Shown here: positions 3,597 to 58,805 of the stretch, in pieces | Numbering within the stretch: position 1 is the stretch's first letter | Layout: each line of letters starts with the position of its first letter | Notes under the pieces: model-generated | Told to the model about the DNA's origin: nothing | The model's database searches: none | The model's input: the letters and a program-made list of their open reading frames with translations, nothing else | Made by a program: the position numbers and the translations under genes | Assembly (NCBI GenBank): GCA_018303845.1 | Contig: JAGVXH010000008.1 | Coordinates: forward strand, 4,092-68,091 | Reading direction: 5' to 3' | Length of the DNA stretch: 64,000 bases | DNA from: Candidatus Pacearchaeota archaeon | Lineage (GTDB): Archaea; Nanobdellota; Nanobdellia; Pacearchaeales; GW2011-AR1

Positions 3597-3597
3597 G

Positions 3598-4490: not shown

Positions 4491-4523
4491 GGTTTTAAAC
4501 TGAAACTTTGATAAAATATTAAA

Positions 4524-5231: not shown

Positions 5232-5232
5232 T

Positions 5233-9638: not shown

Positions 9639-9672
9639 TGTCCCAAAAAAATTGGGAAAATAAAAAATAAAC

Positions 9673-26169: not shown

Positions 26170-26191
26170 AAGGGGAGCTTGATTTTAAAAT

Positions 26192-27535: not shown

Positions 27536-27697
27536 AACTAGAATATATTCATAAAACCTATTTAAATGTTTTGTTAATTAGGTGTATTAGTAATTTGGGC
27601 AAAGTAGTAATTTTGATTATTTTGTTGATTATTTTAACTTATTTAATTGGCTATTTAATTTATTAGTTGATTAGTAATATAAAAAAATAATTTGGGC

Positions 27698-43026: not shown

Positions 43027-44109
43027 CTAAAGATTGAATGCGCTTTGTTCTATTGGCTGACTTGAATAAAGTGCTGCGGTTAGTCCTTTGTCTTTGAAGA
43101 TTAGGGGAAATGCTTCTGATACTTTTGAAAAATTTTTTGGATTAAAACACCAACCTCCGAGATATGGCTTTGGGGTTATTGGAAGTGGGATGAATTTATA
43201 GACTTCTACTTTTGCTTCGTTTATTTCATTTTTATCTAGTTGTGTTTTGAATACGAACTCCTCTGGCTGGGATTTTATTTTTGGGGATTTTATTTGATAG
43301 CTGAAAGTGAAATTATCACCACTTACTTGCCATGTGATTACATTGTATTGGGGAGTTGAAAATTGAGCTACGCCATTATTTGATATGTTCGATATTTCCC
43401 ACGACGACGGGACATATTCTTTTAATTGGATGCCTTCTACTTCATGGGAAAGTCTTGCTTGTAGGGTGATTGTCCCTTCCGCATCACTTCTTATTTTTGG
43501 TTTATTTTTATTTTTGCTGAATTGTTCTGAATATTGTTTTTGGAATGTTAAATTTTGGATTAGAAAAAATGTTTTATTTTCTGTGAATATTTCGTTGTTA
43601 CATATTGCTAGAGTTGTTATGATGTTTTTCCCTAGGGCTAGGTTAGCTTGAGAAAGTGTTTGATTTGTACATGATTGTGAGAAGTTGAGCTCGATTGGGA
43701 TTTGTGATTCTGATATTGTTAGGGTTGTGTTTGGTTGGATTATTCTAATTGCTTTTTCTAGTATTAAAGTTGGTGCGACATCGTAGCCCTCTCCTGATAG
43801 TGTTAGGTTTTTTGGAGTCGCGAAGTAGCCTGAGCTTTTGTCTGTTATTTTTGTTTTGAAGATATCTCCAGATTTCCATTGATATCCTGTTCTGTCTTTT
43901 ATTACGTCGAGGTCACAGCAATATCTGTTATTTGCCGGAGAGACTTGGCAATTTGAAAAATAATTTTCGTTTGTTGCTAAATATGTTTTTACTTCGAACC
44001 AAGATGGGGACATGCTGTCTGTTGACTGAACTTCTCCGCAGATGAATTTGGCAGAAGCTGGGCTAGTTAGTAGTAATAATAATATTATGTATTTTAGTTT
44101 TGTGTCCAT
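43027..44109 (-). CDS. Secreted protein (360 aa) with a divergent family-B-like N-terminal domain; overlaps the 3' end of the 4903-aa gene
   Basis: Signal peptide ending SPASA|KFICGEVQ ..., then GDIFKTKITD ... NLTLSGEGYDVAPTLIL. Compare VTVTGAGFDMAQNLSI in the 393-aa protein. It has a 16-nt overlap with the giant gene. Confidence 0.6.
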   Translation of the reverse strand: MDTKLKYIILLLLLTSPASAKFICGEVQSTDSMSPSWFEVKTYLATNENYFSNCQVSPANNRYCCDLDVIKDRTGYQWKSGDIFKTKITDKSSGYFATPKNLTLSGEGYDVAPTLILEKAIRIIQPNTTLTISESQIPIELNFSQSCTNQTLSQANLALGKNIITTLAICNNEIFTENKTFFLIQNLTFQKQYSEQFSKNKNKPKIRSDAEGTITLQARLSHEVEGIQLKEYVPSSWEISNISNNGVAQFSTPQYNVITWQVSGDNFTFSYQIKSPKIKSQPEEFVFKTQLDKNEINEAKVEVYKFIPLPITPKPYLGGWCFNPKNFSKVSEAFPLIFKDKGLTAALYSSQPIEQSAFNL

Positions 44110-47100
44110 TGTGTTGATGAAGTTACAGAAACTTCATAGCCCTCTTCTAAATTTAATTGGAAATTGTTTCCGATGAATCCTGGTATCCACGGGAAAGGTG
44201 AAGGGATTAGCCCTTGTGAGCCTTGTGTGGTCGGGTTCCATTTTGATATTGCATCTGCATTTGGAATGCTCATTATTAATCCTTGCGCATTTGAACGTGT
44301 TGTATTCGCATAAAGTGCTATCCAGTTTTTACCGAAGCTAGTTGCGTTTTTTGTCAAGTCTATTGTTTGACTCGGATAAACTTTTCCGACCACACTCCAG
44401 TTAATTGTTTGTGATAATGATGTGTTGATATTTACTTCGTAGCCTTTTCCTGATTCTATTTCGAAGTTGCAATTTGTTGCGGTACACGAGAAGCTTTCTG
44501 GGCATGAGAAGTTGTTGCAAGTAACTCTGCTTTGTGTTATTGAGTTGAATGTTGTAAAAGCTGTGCTTTGAGGTATTTCGTTTAATGTTTCGTTTGCGTT
44601 TTTCAAATAACTGGCGTTTGACGGGAATGCAATCCAATTTTGCGATTTTACGATGTTGTGCCTTAATTCGTAGAGATGCGCGCCGAATATATCAGATGCG
44701 TTTTGTCCGGTTGGGTTTGTCGCGATGACTTGGTAGAATCTTCGTTTTTGCCCTGCAAATGTAATATCAGTATAATTTAGATTTGTTGTTTCGGTTACGT
44801 AAGTTAGAGTTGGAATTGTTGAGCCGGCGTAGATTTTGTATCTTTCTGAGTGCTCTGATGCGTTCCATGACAAGATGATGTTTCCTGTTCCGTCGTTTGA
44901 GGTTTGGTTTATGTTATATATTGTTGGTGTTGTTGGTGGTAAAAATGCGGCGAATGTGAAATTGCTTGAGCCCCATGCTGTGTTTTGATATGCGTCTGTG
45001 CATTTTACATTCCATGTGTAATAACCATCTGATTCAACTTCTATCGACGAGAAGTTTAGTATTATATCTTTTGCTGGGTTAGAAATTGTTTGATTTAGGT
45101 GCCAGCCGCCTGACCAGTTTCCGTAGAGTGAGCAGTTTAGGACTTGAGATTCATCTGACAATGTGAAGTTGAATGAGGGAATTGTGTAAGTTGAAAAATT
45201 TGCTGTGTTGATTGGATATGTTAATGTTATCTCTGGCGCGTCTAGTTCTGTGATTTCGATTGCCGACCAACTGGTTGTTCCCGCTCCAGCTGCTACTCCT
45301 TTTTGTAAAACTATTGCGGTTTTATTGTATATATTTTGCGTTAGATATGATGTTGCGAATGACGTTGAGGCTCCTGAGTTTTCGTTTGAGTGGATGTCAA
45401 AAGACCTTGTTGTGTTTACTAGGGGCATAGAAATTGTTGCGTATTGTGGGGATGAGGAAATTGTGTGTGAATGTGTTCCATGTTGTGCGGCGAAGAGGTC
45501 TGATTCAACTGTAAACCATTCGATATCTAATGCTCCTGCTATACCCTCTCTTGTAAAATTTAATGTTGTTGAATTTTTTATTTGTCCCTTTGTCATTGCG
45601 TTTTGAATCAGTGTGTCTGTTGACCTTTTTGAAAATATCATGAATGTTTTATTTGTGTTTATTTGTGATATTGTCTTTTCTGTTGCACTTCCTGTGTTTG
45701 AAATTTGCGCGAAACCTCTTTGCGTTGAAACTTCTTTCCAGCTTACGATTTGGTAAGACAATGTCCCGTTTGCTAGATTTGAAGATCTTGTGAAATTTAC
45801 ATTTGAATCATCTATAAATTTGCCAGTCCAGAATCCGTCAATGTTCTGAGCTGAGGTACTTGAGTCTAGCCTGTTGTTTACTATGATGAAGGAATTTGAT
45901 AAATTGACTTGGGTAATCGATAGAGATAATGTGTTTTCGTTTGTATATGAGATTTCTCCTCTTTGAACTGTTATGTTTGGCCCTGCTACTAGCGACCATT
46001 CAACAATTGCACCTGAACCAGATTCGTAGTTTTTGAAAATGATTTCTTCTGGATCTGTAAAGTCAGATGTTATTTGTAATGTTGCTGGGTCTGAAGTTCC
46101 TGCTCTTACCGTGTGTAAGATAAATCCTTTTGTTGGATGAATTTCTTCTATCGATTGAATGGAAGTTCCATCAGTAAATATTGAACCACGTTGGACTGAA
46201 TATGTTTCTGGCAATTTTATTAGGGATGAATTTACGAAGAATGTTACGTTTCTTGAGGTTGTATATCCCATACTATCGTTTGTATAAACTTGTAGGAAAT
46301 GTGATTGCTCGTCTGCTACATTGATTGCCACACCTTGACAGTTTGGCATTGTCACATTCTCTCCAAAGTTTAGTCTATACCAACATTTGTCCAGATGGAT
46401 GTCATATGCGCTGTAATCTACTCTAAGGCTTGTGTTGTAGGTGTATGTTTTGTTTTGTGGCGAAGTTAGTGTTAGAGTTGGGAATACGGTATCTATTAGT
46501 GTTATATTCCTCGTCGCTGCTGATGCCTTATTTCCCGATGTGTCGTAAGTTGTTGCGTTGTAAAAATATGTCTTGTTTGTTCCTGATGCTTGAAAATTTA
46601 TTTGGGTTATTTGTGATTGGTAGGTTGTTTGATTTAATAGATGTGTTTGATTGTATAGGTAGAATGTTATATTTTTGAAATTTGTTTCTGAGAGAAATGT
46701 GTTTAGGTTGATTAATTCTTGTTCGAGAGATACTCCGGAATCTTCAGTTGGTGCTATGAAAAAAAGAATTGGATTTGTAGTGTCTAATGTTATTTTTCTT
46801 GTGGAGAGATTGAATGTTAATCCGGACTTGTCCGTAATTGTTGCGTTGTAGAAATATGTCCCGTCTGCTAAATTTGTGAAATTAATTTGTCCCGTTTTTG
46901 ACTCAGATGTTGTTGTATTAATTAGTGTACCTGCCAGATAAAGTCTAAATGTTATGTTTGCAAAATTTGTTTCCTGAATTGAAGTATTTATGAAAATGAA
47001 ACTTTGTGATTTGTTGGCTGCGTTAACTTCTGTTGGCGAGACGTATGAAGCTGATGGTGGGAGGTTGTCTAATGTTATGATTCTTGTTTCTGATGTGTTT

Positions 47101-50100
47101 TTATTTCCGGCAAGGTCTAGTGATGTTACATTGTAAAAATATTCGTCGTCTGGCAAAAGCGTATAATTGATGTCTCGTTTCGTGGAAGTGAATGTGTATG
47201 AATCGTAAAGTCCCTCTCCATTAAATAAACTAAATGTTATATTTTTGAAATTTGTTTCTACGACTGATGTGTTTATGTAAATGTAGTTTTGTGTAATGTC
47301 GGTGTTATTGGGAAGGGTCGGCGAGATGAAATTTATTTGAGGCAGTGTCGTGTCAATTGTTATTGTGTAGTTTGTTGTATTGAATTTGTTTCCGACTATG
47401 TCTTCTGCTTGGTAGAACCAGTTGTAAATTCCGTCGGACAAGAAGTTGTATACTGTTCCTATGATTATTGAAAGCTCTCCTGAAAGTGGGATTATTGACG
47501 AGTAGACAAAATCTGTTTGGTTGAAGACATAAAGGACGGCTTGTGCTAATCCGTTTTCGTCTGATAATGTTGCAGTCAGATTCTGTGAAGGGTTGTTTGT
47601 GATTAGGTTGTTTGTTGGAGATGTCGGATTTCCGGTTGGTGAAATTGTATCTAAAAGTATTATTCTTGTTGGGGAATTTCCGTATCTTCCTGCTGAATCA
47701 AAGACTGTTATATTGTAATAGTATTTTTTATCTGGCAAAGTTGTGAAGGTGTGATCTCTAGTTGAATCATTTTGGAAATAGGTTGTGACCAGTCCTGTTG
47801 AATTGTATAAAAAGAATGTCATGTTGCGGAAATTGTTTTCTATTATACTTGAGTTTATGTAAATGAAATTTTGTGAGATGTTTGTGTTATCTGGTAATGT
47901 GTTTAGTCCAAAGTCTACGACTGGGTCTGTCACGTCGAATGTGACTGAATAATTTGATACGGAGGAAGTTACGTAGCCTAGCGTGTCGTTGCAGAAGACG
48001 TTCCATTCAGAAGTTCCTTCTTGCGAAAGGTTGAGTGTAAAATTTCCGTAGGGCTTGTTGCTGGCTGGGACATAACTTATGTTTATATCATCGATTGCCA
48101 TATCGCTTGTGTATGCGGAACCGGTTATACTTCTGAATCTTATTTTTATTGTCCCTTCATAATCTGCTAAACTTCTTGAGACATAGATATATGGAGCCGT
48201 TTGGACTGTTTGATTTTGTCCGACTTGGGACCAAATGGATGTCCAGCTTGAACCATCGTAAACTTCTAGGAATAGACTTCCCATTCCTGCTCCGTACATG
48301 TGAAACCAGAAACTTACATTATAATCGTTTAGGTCTGCATTTAAGTTTTCACTTTCTAACACGGCCTGAGGAGAGCCTGCGTCAAACGCACAAGGTTGCC
48401 CCGAACTTGCTTCGATAAATAGGAAGTGTCCTGCTATTGTTTGAAGTGTATGGTCCGCCTCTGGGCCGGTTGAACCTGAAGGTGTCCCATCGTTGTCTAA
48501 GTTTCTTGACCAATCGCAATTATCTGTTGTGCTTTGTGTCCAATTCCAGCCAGAAGCTACTTCGAAATTATCGAAAAATTTTCCCGTCTCTCCTCTTATC
48601 CAGTCAGAATCTGTTTGGTTTAAATGCCATCCTCCGTTCCATGTCCCCCATAGACTACAACTTCGAGTTAAATCTGGGTCCTCTGCTGTATAATTGAAGA
48701 GAATACTTGTTTCTTGTGAATAGAATGAGTTATCTGATGGTTCTAATAGTTGGATTGCCGGGCCTGTTGTTGAAACTAGGAAGGTTACATTTTTGTAGGC
48801 TAGGTTATTGAAAGTGTCGTTTGCGAAAAAATGAAGTGTGTGTCCGCCGTCTGTTGTGTTAAAGGTTGTTGATGCCGCACAGTTTACTGTTGTGTTTGCT
48901 GTGTTGTCTATATTATACCAGCATGTGCTGACTCCCACTATTTCATCTGTGACTGAATAGTCTAGCGGAAGACTTATGTTTGTTCCATAGGCTTTTGGTT
49001 TTGGATTTATTATTTGGATTACTGGACCTAAATAGTCAATTCCGATTCTTCGTTCTTCTGTTGAATTTGTATTGCCTGCTTTATCCTGAGTCGTTACATT
49101 GTATTTGTAGACTTTGGACGGAAGGTTTGTAAAATTGATTGACCTTGTTGTTCCTGTGTATGTTGTTTGGTTGATTAGAGTTATTCCGTCATAAAGGTTG
49201 AAAGTTATGTTTTGGAAGTTTATTTCTGATATTGTTGTGTTGATGAAAATCCAGTTTCCGGTTTTGTTGAAGTTATTGCTTTCTGTTGGAGAGACGAATT
49301 GTATTATTGGGCTGACTGAATCTAGTGTTGTATATCTAGTTTCTGAGACTCCTAAATTTGAAGCTTTATCGTAAGATATTATTTGGTACCAATATTGTGT
49401 GTTTGCTAGGTTTGTGAAGTTGATTTGTCGTGTCGTGTCTGTGAATGTTGATTGCGCGACTTGCCCGGTGGAGTTGTATAATGTGAATGTTATGTTTTGG
49501 AAGTTTTCTTCTACAAGAGTTGCGGCTACTAAAATCCAATTTTGGTTTATGTGTGTGTTATTAGCAAGTGTTCCAAAGCCATAGGTTATTTGTGGTTCTG
49601 TGTCGTCGAGAGTTATTGATCTTGTTAGAGTTGAAGTTGAATGGCTTACTTTGTCTACAACTGTTACATTGTAGTAATATGTTCCTTGTGAAAGTAGATT
49701 CCATGTTAGCCCCCTTTGTGGGTTTGTGTATGTGTTTGTTTTTATGTTGAAGCCGGTTGCGTTGTAAAGGTTGAATGTTATATTTGCTTCGTTGGCTTCT
49801 GTGACTTCGACACCTACTGTTATTGAATCTCCTGATGCGAAAGATCCTGATGGTTTTGTTGAACTTGAGAAATCTATAGTTGGGGCTAAGTTATCTAATG
49901 TTAAGTTTCTGATTGTTGTTGTATTTGAATTTCCTGCTAGATCGTAAGCCGTTACATTGTAAAAATATACTTCGTCTGGAAGGAGCGTCCAGTTAATTTG
50001 TAATGTCCCATCGGAGAATGAGTGAGAGAAGACTTGGGAGTCCGAATCATAAAGGCTGAATGTTATGTTTTTCCAGTATGTATCTGATGAGGTTACATTT

Positions 50101-53100: not shown

Positions 53101-56100
53101 ATGACTGAATCGTTTGACTTTGTTGCTCCAGAAAAAGTTACTACGGGCGGAGTTGTGTCTAATGTTATTGTTCTTGTTTCGGAATAACCCTCGTTTCCTG
53201 CTAGGTCATATGAGGTTACGTTGTAGTAATATTTATCATCTGAAAGGACTGTCCAATTGATTTGTCTTGTGCTGTCGGAGAATGAGTTCGGACTTGGTGA
53301 GACTATGCCTTCGTCGTTATATAGCCAGAAAGTTATGTTCTTGTAATTTCTTTCGTAGATGGATGTATTTATTGTTATGTAATCTCGAAGGACAATACTA
53401 TTGGTGTTTTCTGTTGGCGCAATGAGTGTTATCGTTGGTGCTGTTGAGTCTATCTCAATTGAGTTTGCTGTTGTATTGAATTCGTTGTTGACTGAATCTC
53501 GGACTCGGTAGAACCATGTGAAAACATCGTCGTATAGGAATTCGTAGATTATTCCGACTGTTGCAGATGTTAATCCGACTAGAGAAATCAGTGAAGAATA
53601 AATTGTGTGGCCTGTTGAGTTGACTACGAAAAGTGTTGCATCTTTTAACTCAAGGGAATCTGAGACTGTTGCGGTTAGGTTTTGGGTTTTATTTTTTGTG
53701 AAATATCCGTTTCCTGGTGAGTCGGAGGTTCCTGTTGGAGAAGTTGTATCTAGTTCTATTGCTCTTGTCAAACTTGATGAGTATCTTCCTGATTTATCAT
53801 AGGCTGTGAAGTTGTAATAGTATGTCTGGTCTGACAAACTTGTCCATGTTATGTTTTTTGTTCCGTCGGAGAATATTTGGGAATTAATTAGGAAATTGCT
53901 TGAGTTGAATAAGAAGAATGTTATGTTTTTTGGATTTGTTTCTACTACGCTTGTGTTGACGTAGATTTCGTTGTCGCTTACTCTTGAATTATCCGAGAGC
54001 GTTCCTTCCCCGAAGTCTACTACTGGATTTGTTAGGTCGATTCCGACTGAGTAATTGTTTAGTGCTGTTGACTTGTAGCTTAAGGAATCGTTGCACTCTA
54101 TATTCCATTTGTATTCTCCTTCTGTTGTTAGGTTGACTGTGAAGTTGGCGAAGGTTTTTGCGGCGACTACAGTGAAGTTTGTGTCGTCGTTGTCGAAGTA
54201 TGTTCCTTGATCTACGCAGAAATTTGCTAGTGCATTGGGATCGTCGTCATATCCGATACCGCATCTTACCCAGTGTGTCCCGATTACATTATCTACCGTG
54301 AAACTTCGTGTTAGGTTGTAGTTTGTTCCGCTTGGAGCCGTTCCAGAATAGATTGTCTTCCACCCTGTTCCATTGTAATACCACATGTAGACTTCGTTTG
54401 TCGTTCCATATGGGTCAATGTAACAGATTGCTTGTAGCGTTGTTCCTGGTATTGTTTTTGTGTAACTTAGCCACATTTGTTCTATTGATTCGTCTGCTGA
54501 GGTTCCTTGTGAGGCGCATGTATTCCACGTATTGTCTCCTTCTGCTGAAAGTGGACTTGCTCCACAATCTAGACTTGGCCATGTTTGGCTACACGTTTTG
54601 ACTGTCGTGTTTGTTAGTAAAGCATAACTTGAGTCGGTTTGATTTAGATGCCATCCTCCATTCCATGTTCCAAAAAGAGAACAGGACTGAACTCCGTCTG
54701 GGTCGGTTGCTGAATAATTGAATAATGTGTTTGTTGCCGAGGGGTAGAAGGTGTCGTTTGCTGGGTTGTATAGAGATATTGCTGGTCCTGTTGTTGAGAC
54801 TAGGAATGTGACTTGGGAATTTGATGGGTTTCCGAATGTATCGTTTGCAAAGAACCACAGAGTGTGTGAGCCGTCTGTGACTGTGAATTGCGATGAGCCT
54901 GTGCAACTAACTGTTGTGTTTGCTCCGTTGTTTATGTTGAACCAGCAAGTGTGTGGTTGTGCGATTGGATCTGAGATGGTGTATGTTAGTGGTATGTCGG
55001 TTCCGTTTCCGTAGGCTTTTGATTGAGGGGAAGTTATTGATATTATAGGTCCCGATGTATCTAGCCCGATTATTCGGGTTGAACTTGATGCGAAATTTCC
55101 TGCTAGGTCGTAAGCTGTAAAATTGTAGTTGTAAAAGTTTGTTTGTAGATTTGTGAAATTAATTTGTCTTTGTGATGTTGTTGTTTGGTTGACTAAGCCT
55201 GACGGTCCGTAAACGTAAAATGTTATGTTTGCGAAGTTTGTTTCGATTAGGCTCGTATTTATGAAGAGCCATGTTTGACTTAGGTTGGATAAGTTGTTTG
55301 GCGTTGGACTTGAAAAATTTACTATTGGCGATATTGTATCTAATGTTGTTTTTCTTGTAGTTGAATAACCTAAGTTGTTCGCTTTATCTGCGACTGTTAT
55401 ATTGTAGAAATATTCTGTATTCGGAATATTTGTAAAGTTATATGCCCTTGTCCCGTCTGTGAAAATTTGTGAGGCGACTAGGTTTGTTAAATTGTATAAA
55501 TTGAATGTTATGTTTGCGAAGTTTGTTTCTGTTAGACTCGAGTTTATGTAGATGAAATTTTGTGAAAGGTAGGAGTTGTCTGGATATGTTGGCTCGGAAT
55601 AATTTACTATCGGGACTTGGTTGTCTAAGGTTATTTTCCTAGTTTCTGTTGAACTGTTTTTCCCGAAGATATTGAATACTGTTACATTGTAAAAATATGT
55701 CCCTTCTGGGAGAAATGTCCATGAAATTGTTCGCCGCGCATCTGTATAAGTTGATGGTGTTCTTTCTGGGAATCCTGTTTCATTAAAAATATAAAATGTT
55801 ATGTTTGCTTCGTTTTCCTCTATTACGCTTACTTCTGCTGTTAGTGTTGTGCCTGATATTGTTGCGTTTGTTGGATATGTTTGTCCTGAGAATGTTACTA
55901 TTGGATTTGTTGAACTTACTCGGACTATTCTTGTTTCGGTTGAGTTTGATTGATTGGCTAAGTCATAAACTGTTGCACGGTATGAATAATTTCCGTTTGG
56001 TAGTCCTAGGAAATTATGTGTTGTTGTCTTTGTTGTGTAAGTTGTTTGACTAAATAATCCTGTTGTATTATAAATTGAATATGTTACATTTTTAAAATTT

Positions 56101-58805
56101 ATTTCTGTTATGTTCAAATCAATTGTGAAAGAATTATCTCCTATTAGGGAATTGTTTTCTGGTGTATTTGGCGAGACGAAATTTACTAAAGGCAAGCTTG
56201 TATCTAGGATTATGTTTCTTGTTTGACTGCTTCCACTGTAACCTACTTTATCAAAGACTGTAATGTTGTAGGAGTATTGTGTGTTTGGTAGGTTTGTGAA
56301 ATTGTAGACTGATGTTTTGTTTGGGAAGAATTGTGTTGAGACTAGGGACGTTAGATTGTATAGGTAGAATGTTGTGTTGGCTGTGTTGTTTTCTGTTATG
56401 GTTAGGTTGATTAATATTGAGGTTGCGTTTGCGGCTGCTCCATCTGCTTGAGTTGGTGAGGCGAAATCTATCGTTGGTGCGGTATGGTCTATTGCTAAAG
56501 ATGTGTTTAGCGAATATGGAGAGTTGGCTGAGTTGCTGCCTGTTAAATCGTAGGCTCTACATGTGAAGTTTACGCTAGAGGTTTCGGACAGTGATGTTGT
56601 ATTCCATGTGAATGTTGAACTTGCGGTGTGGTTTCCGATGTATCCGCTTGTGGTGTTTATCATGTATGTTATTTGGTCTGCATCTATATCTGTTGAGCCT
56701 GAACAATTTAGTGTTACGCTTTTGTCTACTGTGATATTGCATGAGCCACCGTTACAAGTTAGGTTTGTTGGGGTTGTCGGAGGAAGGTTTGGTCTAGTTC
56801 TAATTGCGATTTGAAAATATGCTGAACTATCTGCAACGGCATGCGCTACCGTGGCAGTTCCAGTTGCTCCCGCTAGTGTTTGGTCTTTTGTTCCCCATGT
56901 TCCTCCTGCTCCTCCTGCCGTTCCATCTGCTTCTTGCTCGCCAGACTCAGACCATCCTGTTCCAGAAACTGAAAAGGGGTCCCCATCTCCTCCATCAAAA
57001 GATAGTCCGTAAATTGCTAGGGAATTGTTATACGTTGTTGCTATTGATGGGATTATACGGCTGGCTACACTTCCTGCTGCTGCAAAATTACTATTATCTA
57101 TAGGAGTTGTTGTATCTGCTCCTGATATACGAATATACCAACCGAAAATATTATTTGCAGCTTGGGCTGTTACGGATACTGTTCCTTCTGTTCCATCTGC
57201 TTTCTTCCAGTAGGCTGCGATGTGGGCGTCGGAAGTAGTTGTCCCGCTTTGTCCTATCATGTTCCAGCCGGCAACATTATCTGAGAATTGTTGTGTAGAT
57301 GTAGCTGCATCGTTTCCAACAATTATTAACAAAAGTTCTCCTTCGGTGATTCCTGAGGGTGCGGCTAAGTTTATGGTGGCGGCTGTTGTTGTTCCCAAAC
57401 TTGTTGCTTGGAATCCTTCTACAATTGGAGTTGGTGGGTCAATTATATAATCAAACTCCAAACTTCCTTCTAAAACTTTTAAGTCAAAAGTATCTTGTGG
57501 GTTTTCTAAATTTGTTAGGTAAACTTTATTTTTCCCGTCTACTAAATTTGTAAATTCCGTTATTATTTCATTTGAATCTTTTTCATAGACTTCTATTTTT
57601 GGGTTCCCTGTTATTGTTCTTGAATAAATTGTAATATCTTTTGTTGAATCTAGCGGTCGTTCAAAAGTTACTCTTGCGAATTCGTTTTCGTTTATTTTTT
57701 CGGACCAGATATCGTCCAAATCTTTTATTTCTTCGTATATATTTGAGAGGAATTCTTTATTTTTATCTAGGTGCGTGGCTCTTGTGACTACAATTATTTC
57801 GAAGGTTTGGTTGCTTAGATGCGGGACTGTCCACTCGATGTAGTCGTAGATTCCGTTATTATTTGTGTCTTCTAGCTTTGTTGGGATGATTTGCTTGGAT
57901 TCTTCTACCCAATTTATTTTGACATCTTGTTGGTTTTTGATTTTGAATTCTTCACTTAGGTTTGTGAAAGCTAGGACTTCTTCATAATGAGTTTTGGAAT
58001 AGATTAGGACTTCTTTCCCGTTTGGCTTTGTTGTTTCTTCTATTTTTGGGGCTGGTGTTTCGTATGTTATTTCTATGTGGGTTTCTTCTGATTCTTCTGA
58101 TGCTGTTATGCCAAAGGATTGTGATTGTGAATTTTCTGGGGCTTCTTTTATCTTTAGTGTTTTTTTAATTTCTTCTGCTTCTTGAGGAATTTGAATTTCT
58201 ATGTTGGAATCGTTTGTGTAGATTTTTTTTGTCCACTTTACTTTTTCTCCCACGACTGCTTCGCCTTGAATTAGTTCTACTCTTAATTCAGATTCGTTGA
58301 TTAGTTCTGAGATTGTTTGGTTTGTTTGGTTTGTTTGGTTTTGTTCTGGGGCTAGGGTTGTTTGGTTTTGTTCTGGGGTTAGGGTTGTTTGGTTTTGTTC
58401 TGGATATTCGTTGGTTGAATTGAATTGGGATTCTTCTTCGGATTGGTTGGATTCTGCTGGGGTTGTTTGGTTGGATTCTGCTGGGGTTGTTTGGTTGGAT
58501 TCTGCTGGGGTTGTTTGGTTGGATTCTGCTGGAGTTGTTTGGTTGGATTCTATCGTGATATTTTCTAATAGCTCGTCATTTTCTTCTGTTATGGAATTTT
58601 GTTGTTCGGGTTGTTGTTCGGGTTGTTGTTCGGGTTGTTGTTCGGGTTGTTGTTCAGGTGTTTCTGTACTTGGATTTGTTGAGAAAGGGCTGGAGTTGTC
58701 TGAAATTGAAATGTCTGTTGAAATAGCAACGTTTGTCATTAGAAGAATGTAGATCAGGAAGATTACTCCAAAGTCTCGCAATTCTAGTTCTCCCCTTTTG
58801 TTCAT
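44094..58805 (-). CDS. Giant (4903 aa) secreted adhesin-like surface protein
   Basis: Uninterrupted 14.7-kb ORF with an N-terminal signal/anchor (FGVIFLIYILLMTNVAIS). After low-complexity tandem repeats comes the N-module shared with giant 1. The body is dozens of ~95-aa Ig-like repeats organised in 3-4 super-repeats, with nested unknown, DUF2341+LamG and MAM-like inserts. The C-terminal part holds 4 'QRG' repeats, an FN3-like domain and a duplicated C-terminal domain. There is no C-terminal TM. Confidence 0.9.
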   Translation of the reverse strand: MNKRGELELRDFGVIFLIYILLMTNVAISTDISISDNSSPFSTNPSTETPEQQPEQQPEQQPEQQPEQQNSITEENDELLENITIESNQTTPAESNQTTPAESNQTTPAESNQTTPAESNQSEEESQFNSTNEYPEQNQTTLTPEQNQTTLAPEQNQTNQTNQTISELINESELRVELIQGEAVVGEKVKWTKKIYTNDSNIEIQIPQEAEEIKKTLKIKEAPENSQSQSFGITASEESEETHIEITYETPAPKIEETTKPNGKEVLIYSKTHYEEVLAFTNLSEEFKIKNQQDVKINWVEESKQIIPTKLEDTNNNGIYDYIEWTVPHLSNQTFEIIVVTRATHLDKNKEFLSNIYEEIKDLDDIWSEKINENEFARVTFERPLDSTKDITIYSRTITGNPKIEVYEKDSNEIITEFTNLVDGKNKVYLTNLENPQDTFDLKVLEGSLEFDYIIDPPTPIVEGFQATSLGTTTAATINLAAPSGITEGELLLIIVGNDAATSTQQFSDNVAGWNMIGQSGTTTSDAHIAAYWKKADGTEGTVSVTAQAANNIFGWYIRISGADTTTPIDNSNFAAAGSVASRIIPSIATTYNNSLAIYGLSFDGGDGDPFSVSGTGWSESGEQEADGTAGGAGGTWGTKDQTLAGATGTATVAHAVADSSAYFQIAIRTRPNLPPTTPTNLTCNGGSCNITVDKSVTLNCSGSTDIDADQITYMINTTSGYIGNHTASSTFTWNTTSLSETSSVNFTCRAYDLTGSNSANSPYSLNTSLAIDHTAPTIDFASPTQADGAAANATSILINLTITENNTANTTFYLYNLTSLVSTQFFPNKTSVYNFTNLPNTQYSYNITVFDKVGYSGSSQTRNIILDTSLPLVNFVSPNTPENNSLIGDNSFTIDLNITEINFKNVTYSIYNTTGLFSQTTYTTKTTTHNFLGLPNGNYSYRATVYDLANQSNSTETRIVRVSSTNPIVTFSGQTYPTNATISGTTLTAEVSVIEENEANITFYIFNETGFPERTPSTYTDARRTISWTFLPEGTYFYNVTVFNIFGKNSSTETRKITLDNQVPIVNYSEPTYPDNSYLSQNFIYINSSLTETNFANITFNLYNLTNLVASQIFTDGTRAYNFTNIPNTEYFYNITVADKANNLGYSTTRKTTLDTISPIVNFSSPTPNNLSNLSQTWLFINTSLIETNFANITFYVYGPSGLVNQTTTSQRQINFTNLQTNFYNYNFTAYDLAGNFASSSTRIIGLDTSGPIISITSPQSKAYGNGTDIPLTYTISDPIAQPHTCWFNINNGANTTVSCTGSSQFTVTDGSHTLWFFANDTFGNPSNSQVTFLVSTTGPAISLYNPANDTFYPSATNTLFNYSATDPDGVQSCSLFGTWNGGWHLNQTDSSYALLTNTTVKTCSQTWPSLDCGASPLSAEGDNTWNTCASQGTSADESIEQMWLSYTKTIPGTTLQAICYIDPYGTTNEVYMWYYNGTGWKTIYSGTAPSGTNYNLTRSFTVDNVIGTHWVRCGIGYDDDPNALANFCVDQGTYFDNDDTNFTVVAAKTFANFTVNLTTEGEYKWNIECNDSLSYKSTALNNYSVGIDLTNPVVDFGEGTLSDNSRVSDNEIYVNTSVVETNPKNITFFLFNSSNFLINSQIFSDGTKNITWTSLSDQTYYYNFTAYDKSGRYSSSLTRAIELDTTSPTGTSDSPGNGYFTKNKTQNLTATVSDSLELKDATLFVVNSTGHTIYSSLISLVGLTSATVGIIYEFLYDDVFTWFYRVRDSVNNEFNTTANSIEIDSTAPTITLIAPTENTNSIVLRDYITINTSIYERNYKNITFWLYNDEGIVSPSPNSFSDSTRQINWTVLSDDKYYYNVTSYDLAGNEGYSETRTITLDTTPPVVTFSGATKSNDSVITGTIITAEVSATEVNEQNITFALYNETGGLAKPLSIFTDGRRAVTWTLLSEGIYFYNVTLIDKVSQKGSTETRKITLDNTAPAIDFSAPTEDSNTNKSQNWIFINTSLTELNFQNITFFLFNSTGLVSSQTYNDSTRAHNFTNLPNEIYSYNITVFDKASQNSSSQTRTITLDTILPIISFTSPTENDGAIRNRNWVYLNTTVTEQNFKQITFNLYGPEGLISEETFTDLTRAYNFTDLPDENYQYNVTSIDWAGNTNSSETRSIGLDSSGPVVTITKPRAKTYGYNESLSLEHTVSDKVSSVQACWWNLDNGENQSITCGTTTTFNTSVASHTLYFYANDTFGNIGQDSVSFFISITGPAIELIAPINDTFYGAGTELNFSFSAYDPDDVDTCSLYGNWNGAWHQNETYSGNWQDVASENRREINITNTGSTTLTDFPIYLNISSYHTETGDYADLLFFSGTCDSAGTALSYEIEDYTSRQANVWLKIPSFTVGTNTICMYYKNPDAESTETPASVWSASYTSVYHLDQTSGTAFDTLGNWNTEDGIDPDSNMNTSGKIGGADYFDGTDYLGTNPEWNVDGAHTYCAWIKFASNHNGTILEDGGTTDGTGLGVTTSGAIRYAECYNNAFNPIDSGTTYADDSWHYVCGGHTGTVQFLYVDGSLSGSATQGDGLSGTDNARIGAATGANPVFYDNVAHNFIGTLDEIRVSSTFRSADWINQSYQQITNYESTTTLGQEQNFTAFQVPIQEEGSYKWNIKCNDTIGYDSFGLNNFTFIVDVTDPQIFFGSGTEANNSNVGRNWVFADVNLIENNFKNITFNLYNSTGFPRTNSYTDSTRQTNFTNLASGTYYYNVTVFDKANHVGYSETRKINLDLIAPSGNLGTPANNSYLNNLNQNLTATFSDTTGLLNATLYILNATGQIIHTQVVGLGGALSSTVGIVYNFLTEGIYRWFYQVEDTVGNKMNTTTNTLTIDTTQPLIEYGIGTEESGLIFERENIFVNVTSSDTYWKNITFSLYDSDSQVFSHSFSDGTLQINWTLLPDEVYFYNVTAYDLAGNSNTTTIRNLTLDNLAPTIDFSSSTKPSGSFASGDSITVGVEVTEANEANITFNLYNATGFNIKTNTYTNPQRGLTWNLLSQGTYYYNVTVVDKVSHSTSTLTRSITLDDTEPQITYGFGTLANNTHINQNWILVAATLVEENFQNITFTLYNSTGQVAQSTFTDTTRQINFTNLANTQYWYQIISYDKASNLGVSETRYTTLDSVSPIIQFVSPTESNNFNKTGNWIFINTTISEINFQNITFNLYDGITLINQTTYTGTTRSINFTNLPSKVYKYNVTTQDKAGNTNSTEERRIGIDYLGPVIQIINPKPKAYGTNISLPLDYSVTDEIVGVSTCWYNIDNTANTTVNCAASTTFNTTDGGHTLHFFANDTFNNLAYKNVTFLVSTTGPAIQLLEPSDNSFYSQETSILFNYTAEDPDLTRSCSLWGTWNGGWHLNQTDSDWIRGETGKFFDNFEVASGWNWTQSTTDNCDWSRNLDNDGTPSGSTGPEADHTLQTIAGHFLFIEASSGQPCAFDAGSPQAVLESENLNADLNDYNVSFWFHMYGAGMGSLFLEVYDGSSWTSIWSQVGQNQTVQTAPYIYVSRSLADYEGTIKIRFRSITGSAYTSDMAIDDINISYVPASNKPYGNFTLNLSQEGTSEWNVFCNDTLGYVTSSVSNYSVTFDVTDPVVDFGLNTLPDNTNISQNFIYINSSIIENNFRNMTFFLYNSTGLVTTYFQNDSTRDHTFTTLPDKKYYYNITVFDSAGRYGNSPTRIILLDTISPTGNPTSPTNNLITNNPSQNLTATLSDENGLAQAVLYVFNQTDFVYSSIIPLSGELSIIIGTVYNFLSDGIYNWFYQAEDIVGNKFNTTNYTITIDTTLPQINFISPTLPNNTDITQNYIYINTSVVETNFKNITFSLFNGEGLYDSYTFTSTKRDINYTLLPDDEYFYNVTSLDLAGNKNTSETRIITLDNLPPSASYVSPTEVNAANKSQSFIFINTSIQETNFANITFRLYLAGTLINTTTSESKTGQINFTNLADGTYFYNATITDKSGLTFNLSTRKITLDTTNPILFFIAPTEDSGVSLEQELINLNTFLSETNFKNITFYLYNQTHLLNQTTYQSQITQINFQASGTNKTYFYNATTYDTSGNKASAATRNITLIDTVFPTLTLTSPQNKTYTYNTSLRVDYSAYDIHLDKCWYRLNFGENVTMPNCQGVAINVADEQSHFLQVYTNDSMGYTTSRNVTFFVNSSLIKLPETYSVQRGSIFTDGTSIQSIEEIHPTKGFILHTVRAGTSDPATLQITSDFTDPEEIIFKNYESGSGAIVEWSLVAGPNITVQRGEISYTNENTLSLSITQVNLSNSFIIVNNRLDSSTSAQNIDGFWTGKFIDDSNVNFTRSSNLANGTLSYQIVSWKEVSTQRGFAQISNTGSATEKTISQINTNKTFMIFSKRSTDTLIQNAMTKGQIKNSTTLNFTREGIAGALDIEWFTVESDLFAAQHGTHSHTISSSPQYATISMPLVNTTRSFDIHSNENSGASTSFATSYLTQNIYNKTAIVLQKGVAAGAGTTSWSAIEITELDAPEITLTYPINTANFSTYTIPSFNFTLSDESQVLNCSLYGNWSGGWHLNQTISNPAKDIILNFSSIEVESDGYYTWNVKCTDAYQNTAWGSSNFTFAAFLPPTTPTIYNINQTSNDGTGNIILSWNASEHSERYKIYAGSTIPTLTYVTETTNLNYTDITFAGQKRRFYQVIATNPTGQNASDIFGAHLYELRHNIVKSQNWIAFPSNASYLKNANETLNEIPQSTAFTTFNSITQSRVTCNNFSCPESFSCTATNCNFEIESGKGYEVNINTSLSQTINWSVVGKVYPSQTIDLTKNATSFGKNWIALYANTTRSNAQGLIMSIPNADAISKWNPTTQGSQGLIPSPFPWIPGFIGNNFQLNLEEGYEVSVTSSTQWTQN
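48085..48590 (-). other. MAM-like domain nested in giant 2 (approximate)
   Basis: FDNFEVASGWNWTQSTTDNCDWSRNLDNDGTPSGSTGPEADHTLQTIAGHFLFIEASSG ... AVLESENL ... YNVSFWFHMYGAGMGSLFLEVYDGSSWTSIWSQVGNQ ... IKIRFRSITGSAYTSDMAIDDINISY. Confidence 0.6.
50930..51830 (-). other. DUF2341-like plus LamG-like domain pair nested in giant 2 (approximate)
   Basis: DUF2341-like: RREINITNTGSTTLTDFPIYLNIS ... DLLFFSG ... LSYEIEDYTSRQANVWLKIPSF ... ICMYYKNPDA. LamG-like: VYHLDQTSGTAFDT ... GGADYFDG ... WHYVCGGHTGTVQFLYVDGS ... FIGTLDEIRVSSTFRSADWI. Confidence 0.6.
58337..58403. repeat. 2.5 copies of a 27-bp tandem repeat inside giant 2 (encodes PEQNQTTL(T/A))
   Basis: Units at 58337-58363 and 58364-58390, plus a partial unit. 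There is one mismatch between the full units. Confidence 0.85.
58447..58550. repeat. 4.3 copies of a 24-bp tandem repeat inside giant 2 (encodes ESNQTTPA)
   Basis: ttggattctgctggggttgtttgg at 58447, 58471, 58495 and 58519 (one mismatch at 58533), plus a partial fifth copy. Confidence 0.9.
58599..58658. repeat. 5 copies of a 12-bp tandem repeat inside giant 2 (encodes PEQQ)
   Basis: ttgttgttcggg occurs four times perfectly, plus one copy with one mismatch. Confidence 0.9.

What the first reader, a model, noticed from the sequence alone, without database searches (positions are those of the whole stretch)
44094..58805. The 4903-aa giant is built from ~1000-aa super-repeats in which one Ig-like host domain carries a different nested insert at the same loop
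Seen: a ~100-aa host domain recurs four times.
- Copy 1: TTGPAISLYNPANDTFY ... CSLFGTWNGGWHLNQTDS.
- Copy 2: ITGPAIELIAPINDTFY ... CSLYGNWNGAWHQNETYS.
- Copy 3: TTGPAIQLLEPSDNSFY ... CSLWGTWNGGWHLNQTDS.
- Copy 4: APEITLTYPINTANF ... CSLYGNWSGGWHLNQTIS.
- Each copy closes with G(E/S)YKWNI(E/K)CND, TSEWNVFCND or GYYTWNVKCTD.

In copy 4, and in the homologous domain of the 616-aa protein (LWGNWSGGWSEKAF ... GSYKWNCFVEDD), the two halves are only ~30 aa apart. In copies 1-3 they are split by inserts:
- Copy 1 has a ~150-aa Cys-containing domain I cannot name (approx 54180-54600).
- Copy 2 has a DUF2341-like plus LamG-like pair (approx 50930-51830).
- Copy 3 has a MAM-like domain (approx 48085-48590).

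Each host copy is preceded by the same domain order: several ~95-aa repeats (consensus ITLDTxxPxxxFxxPT ... NITFxLYNxTG ... FTNLP ... YxYNVTxxDxAGN ... ETR), then a CW(F/W/Y)N(I/L) ... HTL.F(F/Y)ANDTFGN domain.

Inference: large segmental duplications were followed by payload swapping. That gives a display scaffold presenting different putative ligand-binding domains, consistent with multivalent host or substrate adhesion.
Basis: partly seen in the sequence, partly recalled or inferred. Interest (0 to 1): 0.75.

Follow-up and report, generated by a model that had tools for sequence, protein, structure and literature searches.

The report
Archaeal giant protein with nested swappable domains
A 4903-residue surface protein of a tiny DPANN archaeon is a long stalk of antibody-like domains in which one domain type is repeatedly split open, at the same loop, to carry a different probable binding module, and related archaea carry different modules at the same sites.

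Summary
ORF 44094-58805 (-) encodes 4903 aa, and every quoted motif is at the stated place. Three collinear super-repeats (period 919-1091 aa, about 50% identity) lose similarity exactly where a ~95-aa Ig-like host domain is interrupted.

The interruptions are a 154-aa Cys-rich domain with no family match, a DUF2341 + Laminin_G_3 pair, and a MAM domain. A fourth copy and the copy in the neighbouring 616-aa protein are uninterrupted.

Nesting is well supported. A profile built only from 250 uninterrupted foreign copies matches the halves as complementary pieces. A Cys in each half covaries across 1185 copies. Copy 4 models as one seven-stranded sandwich, with the insertion site in the loop between strands 4 and 5. 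The direct AF2 test on a split copy was inconclusive.

Assembly artefact is excluded by several independent assemblies, three diverged collinear orthologues, and DNA repeats of at most 83% identity.

Payload swapping is supported. One orthologue has MAM where the others have the Cys-rich domain, another has a non-MAM domain where the others have MAM, and the DUF2341-LamG payloads form two deep classes on 70-77% identical hosts.

The principle matches the "split domains" of bacterial RTX adhesins but is not homologous to them. Adhesive function is inferred, not shown.

The parts
44094..58805 (-). Giant ORF, 4903 aa plus stop codon
   Evidence: From aa 185 onward it is 100% identical to the public protein P0158. 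A 4903-aa gene is called on ENA and JGI contigs of 226 kb and 492 kb.
58296..58805 (-). aa 1-170: basic N-terminus, a ~17-aa hydrophobic segment (signal peptide or signal anchor), then low-complexity PEQQ and ESNQTTPA repeats
   Evidence: Read from the sequence. The 24-nt tandem repeat is at 58419-58562. The anchoring role is inferred.
57396..58295 (-). aa 171-470: N-terminal module shared with the second giant of the window; probably lies close to the cell
   Evidence: BLASTP of aa 140-466 against second-giant aa 113-438 gives 40% identity, E 1e-62. No Pfam hit.
56496..57395 (-). aa 471-684: Gly/Ala/Thr-rich region with no family hit. aa 685-770: a small Cys-containing Ig-like domain
55068..56495 (-). 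R1-R5: five ~95-aa Big_13-type Ig-like repeats (super-repeat 1 stalk)
   Evidence: Repeat HMM, E 1e-25 to 3e-42. Pfam Big_13.
54795..55067 (-). CW1 domain (CWFNI...HTLWFFANDTFGN)
54624..54794 (-). Host copy 1, N-half (strands 1-4)
   Evidence: Independent profile, positions 2-63, E 7e-16.
54162..54623 (-). INS1: 154-aa domain with six Cys, no family assignment; nested payload at site 1
   Evidence: No Pfam, NCBIfam or PDB sequence match. 74% identical in orthologue P0018 and 51% in L008. Replaced by MAM in L007. Also occurs in other contexts, in fragments P0156 and P0157.
54045..54161 (-). Host copy 1, C-half (strands 5-7)
   Evidence: Independent profile, positions 46-98, E 1e-10.
52305..54044 (-). 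Super-repeat 2 stalk: R6, X1, R7-R10
52032..52304 (-). CW2 domain
51861..52031 (-). Host copy 2, N-half
   Evidence: Profile positions 3-58, E 1e-15.
50889..51860 (-). INS2: DUF2341 + Laminin_G_3 pair (324 aa); nested payload at site 2
   Evidence: Pfam E 1e-12 and 4e-14. 72% identical to L007 but only 32-37% to P0018 and L008.
50772..50888 (-). Host copy 2, C-half
   Evidence: Profile positions 51-98, E 2e-11.
49044..50771 (-). Super-repeat 3 stalk: R11, X2, R12-R15
48771..49043 (-). CW3 domain
48600..48770 (-). Host copy 3, N-half
   Evidence: E 1e-16.
48060..48599 (-). INS3: MAM domain (180 aa); nested payload at site 3
   Evidence: Pfam MAM E 1.4e-18, profile positions 2-153 of 158. 75% identical to L007 and 43% to P0018. 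L008 has a non-MAM domain at this site.
47943..48059 (-). Host copy 3, C-half
   Evidence: Profile positions 57-98, E 1.5e-8.
46503..47942 (-). Partial super-repeat 4 stalk: R16, X3, R17-R19
46236..46502 (-). CW4 domain (degenerate)
45240..46235 (-). 332-aa region (aa 4191-4522) with no family hit, between CW4 and host copy 4; by eye it appears to contain three ~110-aa repeats. It is a tandem element, not a nested one
   Evidence: No Pfam or NCBIfam hit. 60% identical in P0018. The internal repeat is read by eye only.
44949..45239 (-). Host copy 4, uninterrupted (97 aa)
   Evidence: Independent profile positions 3-96, E 8e-30. AF2 pLDDT 75, pTM 0.68, seven strands. Ig/Fn3/PKD-like matches with TM 0.6-0.69.
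44097..44948 (-). Fn3-like domain (aa 4620-4710) and a 193-aa C-terminal domain with 4 Cys and no hydrophobic anchor; probably the distal tip
   Evidence: 76-77% identical in P0018.
60477..60758 (+). Uninterrupted host-type domain in the neighbouring 616-aa secreted protein

Best explanation
**What it is.** This is a giant, secreted, heavily N-glycosylated cell-surface fibre of a DPANN archaeon from groundwater. Its named relatives are Woesearchaeota and Pacearchaeota.

**Architecture.**
- An N-terminal signal or anchor segment and a conserved N-terminal module probably hold the protein at the cell.
- About 30 Ig-like domains of one superfamily (subtypes R, X, CW and host) then form a stalk.
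- Once per ~1000-aa super-repeat, the host subtype is split in the loop between its fourth and fifth beta-strands.
- A complete, independently folding beta-sandwich module is nested in that loop: a Cys-rich domain, DUF2341 + LamG, or MAM.
- The two host halves re-associate into one sandwich, probably tied by a Cys-Cys pair across the halves. The module therefore projects sideways from the stalk.
- These modules are most likely the ligand-binding parts (glycan or protein). They would give multivalent, multi-specific attachment to a host cell or substrate.

**Evolution.**
- The super-repeat was duplicated before the four known orthologues diverged.
- The loop has since served as a site where payloads are replaced, both by other fold types and by distant members of the same type.
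- The scaffold meanwhile stays 60-80% identical between orthologues.

**Shown here:**
- the architecture;
- that the insertions sit at homologous positions;
- that nesting follows from homology and covariation;
- that payloads differ between orthologues;
- that the gene is archaeal.

**Inferred:**
- the anchoring topology;
- glycosylation;
- the disulfide;
- ligand binding and adhesion;
- the recombination mechanism.
For: **Architecture.**

**The halves belong to one domain.**
- A profile built from 250 uninterrupted copies of unrelated proteins matches copy 4 end to end (E 8e-30). It matches the split copies as complementary N-pieces and C-pieces.
- The top 150 family proteins hold 1569 uninterrupted copies and only 7 split ones.
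- Cys36 and Cys80, one in each half, occur together in 957 copies, are both absent in 171, and occur singly in 57. The odds ratio is 535. Both are kept in every split copy except P0111, which like the 616-aa protein has neither at these positions.
- The AF2 model of copy 4 has pLDDT 75, pTM 0.68 and seven strands. The insertion point falls in the loop at residues 54-60.
- Foldseek matches Ig, Fn3, PKD, macroglobulin and SiiE BIg domains at TM 0.57-0.69 over the whole domain.

**Not an artefact.**
- The identical gene is present in ENA, JGI and NCBI assemblies.
- Three diverged collinear orthologues exist.
- DNA repeats are at most 83% identical over at most 117 nt, apart from one 24-nt tandem repeat.

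**Payload exchange.**
- L007 has MAM at site 1 (Pfam E 5e-13). It is 68% identical to the site-3 MAM of P0018 but only 48% identical to L007's own site-3 MAM.
- L008's site-3 payload is not MAM (no Pfam hit; hhalign probability 0.3%).
- Site-2 payloads fall into two classes: 72% and 60% identity within a class, 32-37% between classes.
- The flanking host halves stay 68-78% identical.
- Which orthologue is closest to the window changes along the gene, so the gene is a mosaic.
- Non-orthologous family members carry DUF2341+LamG, DUF2341+another domain, or a DNRLRE/CBM96-like module in the same loop.

**Display or adhesin reading.**
- MAM and LamG/ConA-like domains are binding folds (established knowledge).
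- N-x-S/T sequons number 225, against 116 +/- 9 in shuffled sequence. They run at 5-7 per 100 aa in the repeat blocks but 1.5-2.6 per 100 aa in the payloads.
- Bacterial RTX adhesins are shown experimentally to project ligand-binding domains from Ig-like split domains (PMC12077191, PMC10865825).
- Giant DPANN surface proteins are generally proposed to mediate host contact (PMC10266531).

**Archaeal origin.** An archaeal-type operon of uS13, uS4, uS11, RpoD, L18e, L13 and uS9 lies at 3108-6656.
Against: - The direct structural test is missing. The AF2 model of split copy 3 had mean pLDDT 54 and pTM 0.41. Its host halves scored 59-80 and formed 4 + 3 strands. Its coordinates could not be inspected, so packing of the halves was not seen. 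Foldseek on that model was uninformative.
- The Cys covariation statistic is not corrected for the relatedness of the copies.
- No ligand, glycan, localisation or expression data exist.
- INS1 has no recognisable fold, so its binding role is a guess.
- The two site-2 payload classes could in principle reflect very fast divergence rather than replacement. Only the change of fold at site 1, and probably that at site 3, are unambiguous.
- There is no C-terminal anchor, and the N-terminal segment could be a cleaved signal peptide. How the protein stays on the cell is therefore unknown.
Confidence: 0.7

Rival explanations
1. Simple tandem arrangement. The ~57-aa and ~39-aa flanks would be separate short elements or linkers, and the "inserts" would be ordinary domains in a linear chain rather than nested ones.
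For: AF2 on the split copy did not give a confident two-domain model. In the same protein the 332-aa region before copy 4 is a tandem element, not a nested one.
Against: - The flanks match complementary halves of a ~95-aa single-domain profile built from foreign sequences.
- 1569 uninterrupted copies exist.
- In a seven-stranded Ig sandwich, a four-strand N-piece cannot close either sheet by itself (established fold knowledge; strand map).
- A Cys in each half covaries.
- Both halves are as conserved between orthologues as the intact domains are, at 67-75%.
Confidence: 0.04
2. Assembly artefact. The super-repeats, or the insert junctions, would come from collapse, expansion or chimerism of a repetitive gene in short-read metagenome assembly.
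For: Several short-read (Logan and ENA) contigs that carry the neighbouring gene end at or just inside the giant gene (loci L003-L005). So the gene may be hard to assemble. The 24-nt tandem repeat at 58419-58562 could vary in copy number.
Against: - The same 4903-aa gene is called on a 226-kb ENA scaffold and a 492-kb JGI contig, and a 100% identical protein is in NCBI.
- Three orthologues at 45-80% identity, from other samples, have the same order of CW, split host and payload.
- Intragenic DNA repeats are only 60-83% identical and at most 117 nt long.
Confidence: 0.02
3. The nested architecture is real, but the payloads differ between orthologues only because they evolve very fast in place (diversifying selection). 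There would be no cassette replacement.
For: - The type is conserved at site 2 in all four orthologues.
- INS1 is conserved at 74% between the window and P0018.
- The ~35-43% identity values could be a saturation floor for these folds. The window's MAM is as far from P0018's MAM (43%) as from a Bacteroidia MAM (42%).
Against: - Site 1 changes fold family, from the Cys-rich domain to MAM, between orthologues whose host halves are 62-68% identical.
- The MAM at L007 site 1 is 68% identical to the MAM at P0018 site 3. That points to movement between sites or lineages.
- Payload identities are bimodal (60-75% or 32-44%) rather than uniformly lowered.
- The scaffold similarity ranking changes along the gene.
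Confidence: 0.15
4. The protein is a display scaffold, but its role is not attachment to a host cell. It could capture polysaccharide or particulate substrate, build a matrix or sheath, or act as an S-layer-like envelope component.
For: - LamG, DUF2341, MAM and DNRLRE/CBM96-like modules are typical carbohydrate-binding folds.
- No secretion ATPase or effector domain lies within the protein.
- The source is groundwater, which is rich in particulate material.
Against: - DPANN archaea with ~1-Mb genomes are typically episymbionts, and their giant surface proteins are generally linked to host contact (PMC10266531).
- Payload turnover on a conserved scaffold is the pattern expected of partner recognition.
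- Neither point is a test.
Confidence: 0.3

Closest known systems
Split domains of Gram-negative RTX adhesins (MpIBP, FrhA, AhLap; Davies laboratory: PMC12077191, PMC10865825, PMC5550230; Graham et al. 2024, Proteins 92:933)
   Same: - A very long fibre of tandem Ig-like extender domains.
- Ligand-binding modules (CBM, PA14, vWFA, peptide-binding) bud out of an Ig-like domain whose fold is completed after the insert.
- The N- and C-termini of the insert lie next to each other.
- Several different ligand-binding modules sit in one protein.
   Different: - The organism is archaeal, with no outer membrane and no type 1 secretion system.
- No RTX or HemolysinCabind repeats are found.
- There is an N-terminal signal or anchor instead of a C-terminal secretion signal.
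- The host domain belongs to a different sequence family.
- The payloads are spaced once per ~1000-aa super-repeat along the stalk, not clustered at the distal end.
- The stalk is rich in sequons rather than in Ca2+ linkers.
- Payload exchange between orthologues is documented here.
Giant surface proteins of DPANN archaea, such as the nanohaloarchaeal SPEARE-type proteins SVXNc_0300 and BNXNv_0298 (PMC10266531)
   Same: - They come from DPANN archaea with small genomes.
- They have a Sec-type N-terminus.
- Most of the protein is tandem ~100-aa Ig-like domains.
- LamG-containing surface proteins occur in the same genomes.
- A role in host interaction has been proposed.
   Different: - SPEARE-type proteins end in a transmembrane segment and a VirB4/TraG-like ATPase. 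This protein has neither.
- In the literature I could search, nested payloads and super-repeats are not described for them.
Integrin beta subunit, where the beta-I domain is nested in the Ig-like hybrid domain (from my own knowledge, not tested here)
   Same: A ligand-binding domain is inserted into a loop of an Ig-like beta-sandwich, which is completed after the insert.
   Different: It is eukaryotic and unrelated in sequence. It has a single insertion, with no repeats and no payload variation.
Module exchange in phage tail-fibre and receptor-binding proteins (from my own knowledge; analogy only)
   Same: A conserved scaffold carries specificity modules that are replaced by recombination between relatives. 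This gives mosaic similarity along the gene.
   Different: Phage modules are exchanged end to end, usually at the C-terminal tip. Here the exchange happens inside a loop of a folded domain.

Membership tests
RTX adhesin (LapA / FrhA / MpIBP type) | C-terminal RTX nonapeptide beta-roll (Pfam HemolysinCabind) and a type 1 secretion signal | tested here: not met
   A whole-protein Pfam scan at E <= 1 gives only MAM, Big_13 and DUF2341, plus two weak Ig-like hits. The C-terminal 302 aa have no such hit.
RTX adhesin (LapA / FrhA / MpIBP type) | Gram-negative bacterial host with an outer membrane and a retention module | tested here: not met
   The window carries an archaeal-type ribosomal protein and RpoD operon. 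Relatives are named Woesearchaeota and Pacearchaeota.
RTX adhesin (LapA / FrhA / MpIBP type) | Ligand-binding domains projecting from Ig-like split domains | tested here: met
   Three split host domains carry complete MAM, DUF2341+LamG and Cys-rich modules. This is a resemblance in how it works, not membership of the family.
Unnamed ~95-aa Ig-like host domain family of DPANN giant proteins | End-to-end match to a profile of uninterrupted copies, including the CSLxGxWxGxW and YxWNxxCxD motifs | tested here: met
   Copy 4 scores E 8e-30 over profile positions 3-96. The split copies match as N-pieces and C-pieces. 4814 clusters in the 1.84-billion-protein library contain the domain.
Pfam MAM (PF00629) | Score above the gathering cut-off with near-full profile coverage | tested here: met
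   62.6-67.7 bits against a cut-off of 26.4, covering profile positions 2-153 of 158.
Pfam DUF2341 (PF10102) + Laminin_G_3 (PF13385) | Scores above the gathering cut-offs | tested here: met
   48.7 bits (cut-off 23.4) and 53.3 bits (cut-off 27.6).
SPEARE-type nanohaloarchaeal giant protein | C-terminal transmembrane segment followed by a VirB4/TraG-like ATPase domain | tested here: not met
   No ATPase family hit anywhere in the protein. The C-terminus is hydrophilic.
Nested (domain-insertion) architecture in general | The two flanks form one compact fold in three dimensions | tested here: inconclusive
Indirect evidence from homology, covariation and the copy 4 model is strong.
Diversity-generating retroelement target | A template/variable repeat pair and a reverse transcriptase nearby | tested here: not met
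   The 64-kb window has no near-identical repeat pair involving the payloads. No reverse transcriptase appeared among the neighbouring proteins I scanned; not every ORF was scanned.

The most novel reading that the evidence does not exclude
The loop between strands 4 and 5 of this Ig-like domain family would be a conserved "socket". DPANN archaea would use it to exchange ligand-binding cassettes by recombination, between sites of one protein, between paralogous giants, and between lineages.

The giant fibres would then act as reprogrammable host-range or partner-range determinants. That would be an archaeal, intra-domain counterpart of module swapping in phage receptor-binding proteins.

Hints that other Ig-like host types in the family are also split by DUF2341 or LamG modules would make nesting the general building rule of these proteins.
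Probability: 0.3. Interest if true: 0.8.

Novelty: new variant of a known kind. Interest (0 to 1): 0.66.

Why it matters
DPANN archaea are a large, mostly uncultured radiation of tiny cells. They live attached to other microbes, and how they recognise their partners is largely unknown.

- **Where to look for specificity.** This protein points to the nested payloads rather than the ~30 stalk domains. It also gives a simple sequence rule for finding such payloads in thousands of related giant proteins: a split host domain that follows a CW domain.
- **Convergent design.** The split-domain display principle, so far established in Gram-negative RTX adhesins, has also arisen in archaea on an unrelated scaffold.
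- **A testable prediction.** Payloads turn over between orthologues while the scaffold stays conserved. That is the signature expected of a partner-specificity determinant.
- **Practical use.** The payload boundaries defined here can be used directly to design expression constructs.

Tried and rejected
- **Whole-protein homologue search.** It timed out and was not counted.
- **Word-indexed searches.** They found very few relatives. They missed even the near-identical public copy, so the exhaustive profile search and the genome scan were needed.
- **Adding a MAM homologue to the AF2 alignment.** MAFFT misaligned it to the host halves (alignments A4 and A5), so it was dropped.
- **AF2 on split copy 3.** Confidence was low. 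Foldseek on that model gave only weak MAM and CBM hits.
- **Second AF2 job.** I spent it on uninterrupted copy 4 rather than on copy 1.
- **Naming INS1.** Nothing significant came from Pfam, NCBIfam, PDB phmmer or a PDB profile search. The best hits were Afp11 at E 0.013-0.015 and Ig_2 at E 5e-4, below the cut-off.
- **A second split host type.** I asked whether the ~55 aa before DUF2341 modules in other family giants are divergent N-halves of this host domain. They are not. They look like halves of a different Ig-like domain, but Pfam gave nothing.
- **L008's site-3 payload as a divergent MAM.** The hhalign probability was 0.3%, so this was rejected.
- **DGR-type mutagenesis as the cause of payload divergence.** No template/variable repeat pair was found.
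- **The host domain in the window's second giant.** The window-derived profile found none. The broader foreign-copy profile matches twelve uninterrupted Ig-like domains there, at up to E 7e-20, and no split ones.
Full report
**1. The observation**

The ORF on the minus strand at 44094-58805 is intact and encodes 4903 aa. Window coordinates follow from high = 58808 - 3a and low = 58806 - 3b for residues a to b.

A self-comparison in 300-aa chunks gives long collinear HSPs at about 50% identity, with E down to 4e-93. The offset between super-repeats changes exactly at the proposed inserts:
- 919 to 1091 for repeat 1 against repeat 2.
- 1087 to 943 for repeat 2 against repeat 3.
- 2006 to 2033 for repeat 1 against repeat 3.

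So the super-repeats are collinear except for a non-homologous block at one position.

Pfam identifies two of the three blocks:
- aa 3403-3582 is MAM (E 1.4e-18, nearly the full profile).
- aa 2316-2639 is DUF2341 plus Laminin_G_3.
- aa 1395-1548, with six Cys, has no match in Pfam, NCBIfam or the PDB sequences.

**2. Domain map**

| Residues | Element |
|---|---|
| 1-170 | Signal or anchor segment, then low-complexity repeats |
| 171-470 | N-terminal module, shared at 40% identity with the window's other giant protein |
| 471-684 | Region with no family match |
| 685-770 | Small Ig-like domain |
| 771-1587 | R x5, CW, host(INS1) |
| 1588-2678 | R, X, R x4, CW, host(INS2) |
| 2679-3621 | R, X, R x4, CW, host(INS3) |
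| 3622-4190 | R, X, R x3, CW |
| 4191-4522 | 332-aa region with no family match |
| 4523-4619 | Uninterrupted host domain (copy 4) |
| 4620-4710 | Fn3-like domain |
| 4711-4903 | C-terminal domain with no hydrophobic tail |

- There is an extra X subtype of Ig-like domain.
- Copy 4 is not directly preceded by its CW domain.

**3. Is the insert nested?**

A profile of the host domain, built from window pieces only (alignment A3), was run against 1.84 billion representative proteins. It found 4814 clusters at E <= 1e-3. Many are giant proteins with up to 35 matched stretches.

In the 150 best proteins there are 1569 uninterrupted copies and only 7 split ones.

To avoid circularity I rebuilt the profile from 250 uninterrupted copies, none from the window or its orthologues:
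- Copy 4 matches end to end (E 8e-30).
- The N-halves of copies 1-3 match profile positions 2-63, 3-58 and 2-84 (E about 1e-15 to 1e-16). The last alignment runs on into the insert.
- The C-halves match positions 46-98, 51-98 and 57-98 (E 1e-10 to 1.5e-8).
- The R, X and CW modules also match weakly over their full length. The whole stalk is therefore one Ig-like superfamily.

Across 1185 uninterrupted foreign copies, the Cys at the start of strand 3 and the Cys in strand 6 covary:

| State | Copies |
|---|---|
| Both present | 957 |
| Both absent | 171 |
| One present | 57 |

The odds ratio is 535 and Fisher p is 2e-150, not corrected for relatedness. One Cys lies in each half. Every split copy keeps both, except P0111, which like the 616-aa protein lacks both at these positions.

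AF2 on copy 4 gives pLDDT 75 and pTM 0.68, with seven strands. The insertion point falls in the loop at residues 54-60, between strands 4 and 5. Foldseek matches Ig, Fn3, PKD, macroglobulin and SiiE BIg domains at TM 0.57-0.69 over the whole 97 residues.

AF2 on split copy 3 had low confidence: pLDDT 54, with the host halves at 59-80 and 4 + 3 strands. I could not read its coordinates.

On homology, covariation and fold logic, nesting is very likely. A four-strand piece cannot close an Ig sandwich by itself.

**4. Not an artefact**
- From aa 185 onward the protein is 100% identical to a public NCBI/ENA protein.
- A 4903-aa gene is called on a 226-kb ENA scaffold and on a 492-kb JGI contig.
- DNA repeats inside the gene are only 60-83% identical and at most 117 nt long. 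The exception is a 24-nt tandem repeat in the low-complexity N-terminus.

**5. Orthologues and payload exchange**

Three collinear orthologues were found:
- P0018, from a Logan assembly.
- L007, "MAG: archaeon isolate SMBSF31".
- L008, a Candidatus Woesearchaeota MAG.

All three have CW followed by a split host at three sites, then a fourth CW and an uninterrupted host domain.

The host halves are orthologous site by site, at 62-78% identity. The payloads are not always orthologous:

| Site | Window | P0018 | L007 | L008 |
|---|---|---|---|---|
| 1 | Cys-rich domain | Cys-rich (74% to window) | MAM (Pfam E 5e-13) | Cys-rich (51% to window) |
| 2 | DUF2341+LamG, class a | class b | class a (72% to window) | class b (60% to P0018) |
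| 3 | MAM | MAM (43% to window) | MAM (75% to window) | 187-aa domain, not MAM |

Further detail:
- The MAM at L007 site 1 is 68% identical to the MAM at P0018 site 3, but only 48% identical to L007's own site-3 MAM.
- The two site-2 classes are 32-37% identical to each other.
- L008's site-3 domain has no Pfam hit, and hhalign against a MAM alignment gives probability 0.3%.
- The window's MAM is as distant from P0018's (43%) as from a Bacteroidia MAM (42%).
- Which orthologue is closest to the window changes along the gene, so the gene is a mosaic. L007 is closest around aa 2200-2800 and 3400-3600. L008 and P0018 are closest in the last 900 aa.

Outside the orthologues, other family members carry different modules in the same loop:
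- DUF2341+LamG in P0145.
- DUF2341 plus another domain in P0154.
- A DNRLRE/CBM96-like module in P0111, a Woesearchaeota protein.

CW followed by an uninterrupted host is the common state (32 cases). CW followed by a split host is rare (5 cases; a sixth, P0002, is a protein that ends inside the N-half). Insertion is therefore the derived state.

No DGR-type repeat pair explains the payload divergence.

**6. Organism and context**

The window carries an archaeal-type operon of uS13, uS4, uS11, RpoD, L18e, L13 and uS9. Its GC content is 35-40%. The neighbouring 616-aa protein lies on contigs of up to 965 kb. Named relatives are Woesearchaeota and Pacearchaeota. This is a DPANN archaeon.

Sequons (N-x-S/T) number 225, against 116 +/- 9 in shuffled sequence. 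They are dense in the repeat blocks (5-7 per 100 aa) and sparse in the payloads (1.5-2.6 per 100 aa). That fits a glycosylated stalk carrying exposed binding modules, but this reading is an inference.

**7. Comparison with known systems**

The closest known principle is the split domain of Gram-negative RTX adhesins. There, ligand-binding domains project from an Ig-like domain that is completed after the insert (PMC12077191, PMC10865825).

This protein works in the same way but is not a member of that family:
- It has no RTX repeats.
- It has no type 1 secretion signal.
- It is archaeal.
- Its host domain belongs to a different family.
- Its payloads are spaced periodically rather than clustered at the distal end.

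It also differs from SPEARE-type nanohaloarchaeal giants, which end in a transmembrane segment and a VirB4-like ATPase (PMC10266531).

I found no description of nested payloads in DPANN giant proteins in the searchable literature. That search covers open-access papers only.

**8. Verdict**

The interpretation (duplication, nesting, payload swapping, display scaffold) is supported. Two points remain open: the direct structural proof and the function. This is a new variant of a known design principle, and the comparative data give a concrete, testable hypothesis about how DPANN archaea recognise their partners.

Noticed in passing
window 11147-23335 (-): This is a second giant ORF, 4062 aa.
- Pfam finds Laminin_G_3 (two stretches), a 3-keto-disaccharide-hydrolase-like ConA fold, Big_13 and CARDB.
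- A profile built from foreign copies finds twelve uninterrupted Ig-like domains near its C-terminus.
- Its N-terminal ~330 aa are 40% identical to those of the studied giant.
- Around aa 600-880, a LamG appears to sit between 'YNWIKNG' and 'GEVWSCEATPNDG'. These look like the two halves of a small Ig/PKD-like domain, so this may be another nested payload on a different host type. I did not verify this.
   Followed up: partly
proteins P0007, P0024, P0055, P0093, P0098, P0114 and about 70 more DUF2341 sites: In other giants of the family, DUF2341 modules are usually not inside this host domain.
- In many cases they start ~55-70 aa after a complete host copy.
- In the six cases examined, the ~55 aa before the module (motif 'VNVTTDKxxYExGE...D.FGN.L') and the ~60 aa after it (motif 'ATGTDG.W...GNYS...FEIVPD') look like the two halves of a second Ig-like domain type.
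- Pfam finds nothing in the joined halves.
- If this is real, nesting of DUF2341 modules is the rule in these proteins.
   Followed up: partly
window 59129-59953 (-): A patatin-like phospholipase (274 aa, Pfam E 4e-16) lies immediately upstream of the giant on the same strand. The same neighbour is seen in the other assemblies of this genome. It may act on membranes during host interaction.
   Followed up: no
window 43027-44109 (-): A 360-aa ORF overlaps the last 16 nt of the giant ORF (stop codon included), which suggests translational coupling. Its only family hit is a weak, sub-threshold B9-C2 match (E 4e-4).
   Followed up: no
window 60072-61922 (+) and 11150-12400 (-): The 616-aa protein combines an uninterrupted host domain with a CARDB domain and a ~200-aa C-terminal domain. 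Its C-terminal ~300 aa (CARDB plus that domain) are homologous to the C-terminus of the second giant (28% identity, E 2e-41). Small and giant surface proteins in this genome therefore share modules.
   Followed up: partly
window 23391-23453 and 23600-23662: Two 63-nt direct repeats, 92% identical and 209 nt apart, lie in the intergenic region just upstream of the second giant's start codon. They could be regulatory or a small RNA. I did not examine them.
   Followed up: no
window 58419-58562: A 24-nt tandem repeat of about five copies, up to 100% identical, encodes ESNQTTPA. PEQQ repeats lie nearby. This is the only part of the gene where copy number could be misassembled. The public protein P0158 starts at aa 185, downstream of this region.
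   Followed up: partly
window 29612-33073 (-): A 1153-aa protein has a CarboxypepD_reg-like beta-sandwich followed by a HerA/FtsK/DUF87-type P-loop ATPase. This recalls the secretion ATPases linked to giant proteins in nanohaloarchaea (PMC10266531). A second DUF87/HerA protein lies just beyond the window in locus L001.
   Followed up: no
window 9657-9789, 26176-26308 and 27682-27814: Three copies of a 133-nt segment, 64-76% identical. They sit at or near the starts of three minus-strand ORFs, so they probably mark a small paralogous gene family.
   Followed up: no
protein P0156 (GOS fragment): Here the Cys-rich INS1-type domain follows 'ITCNGDTC...DADGDQITYYID'. That sequence resembles the N-part of the small Ig-like domain at aa 685-770 of the giant. 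The same payload type may therefore be nested in yet another host type. The fragment ends before this can be checked.
   Followed up: no
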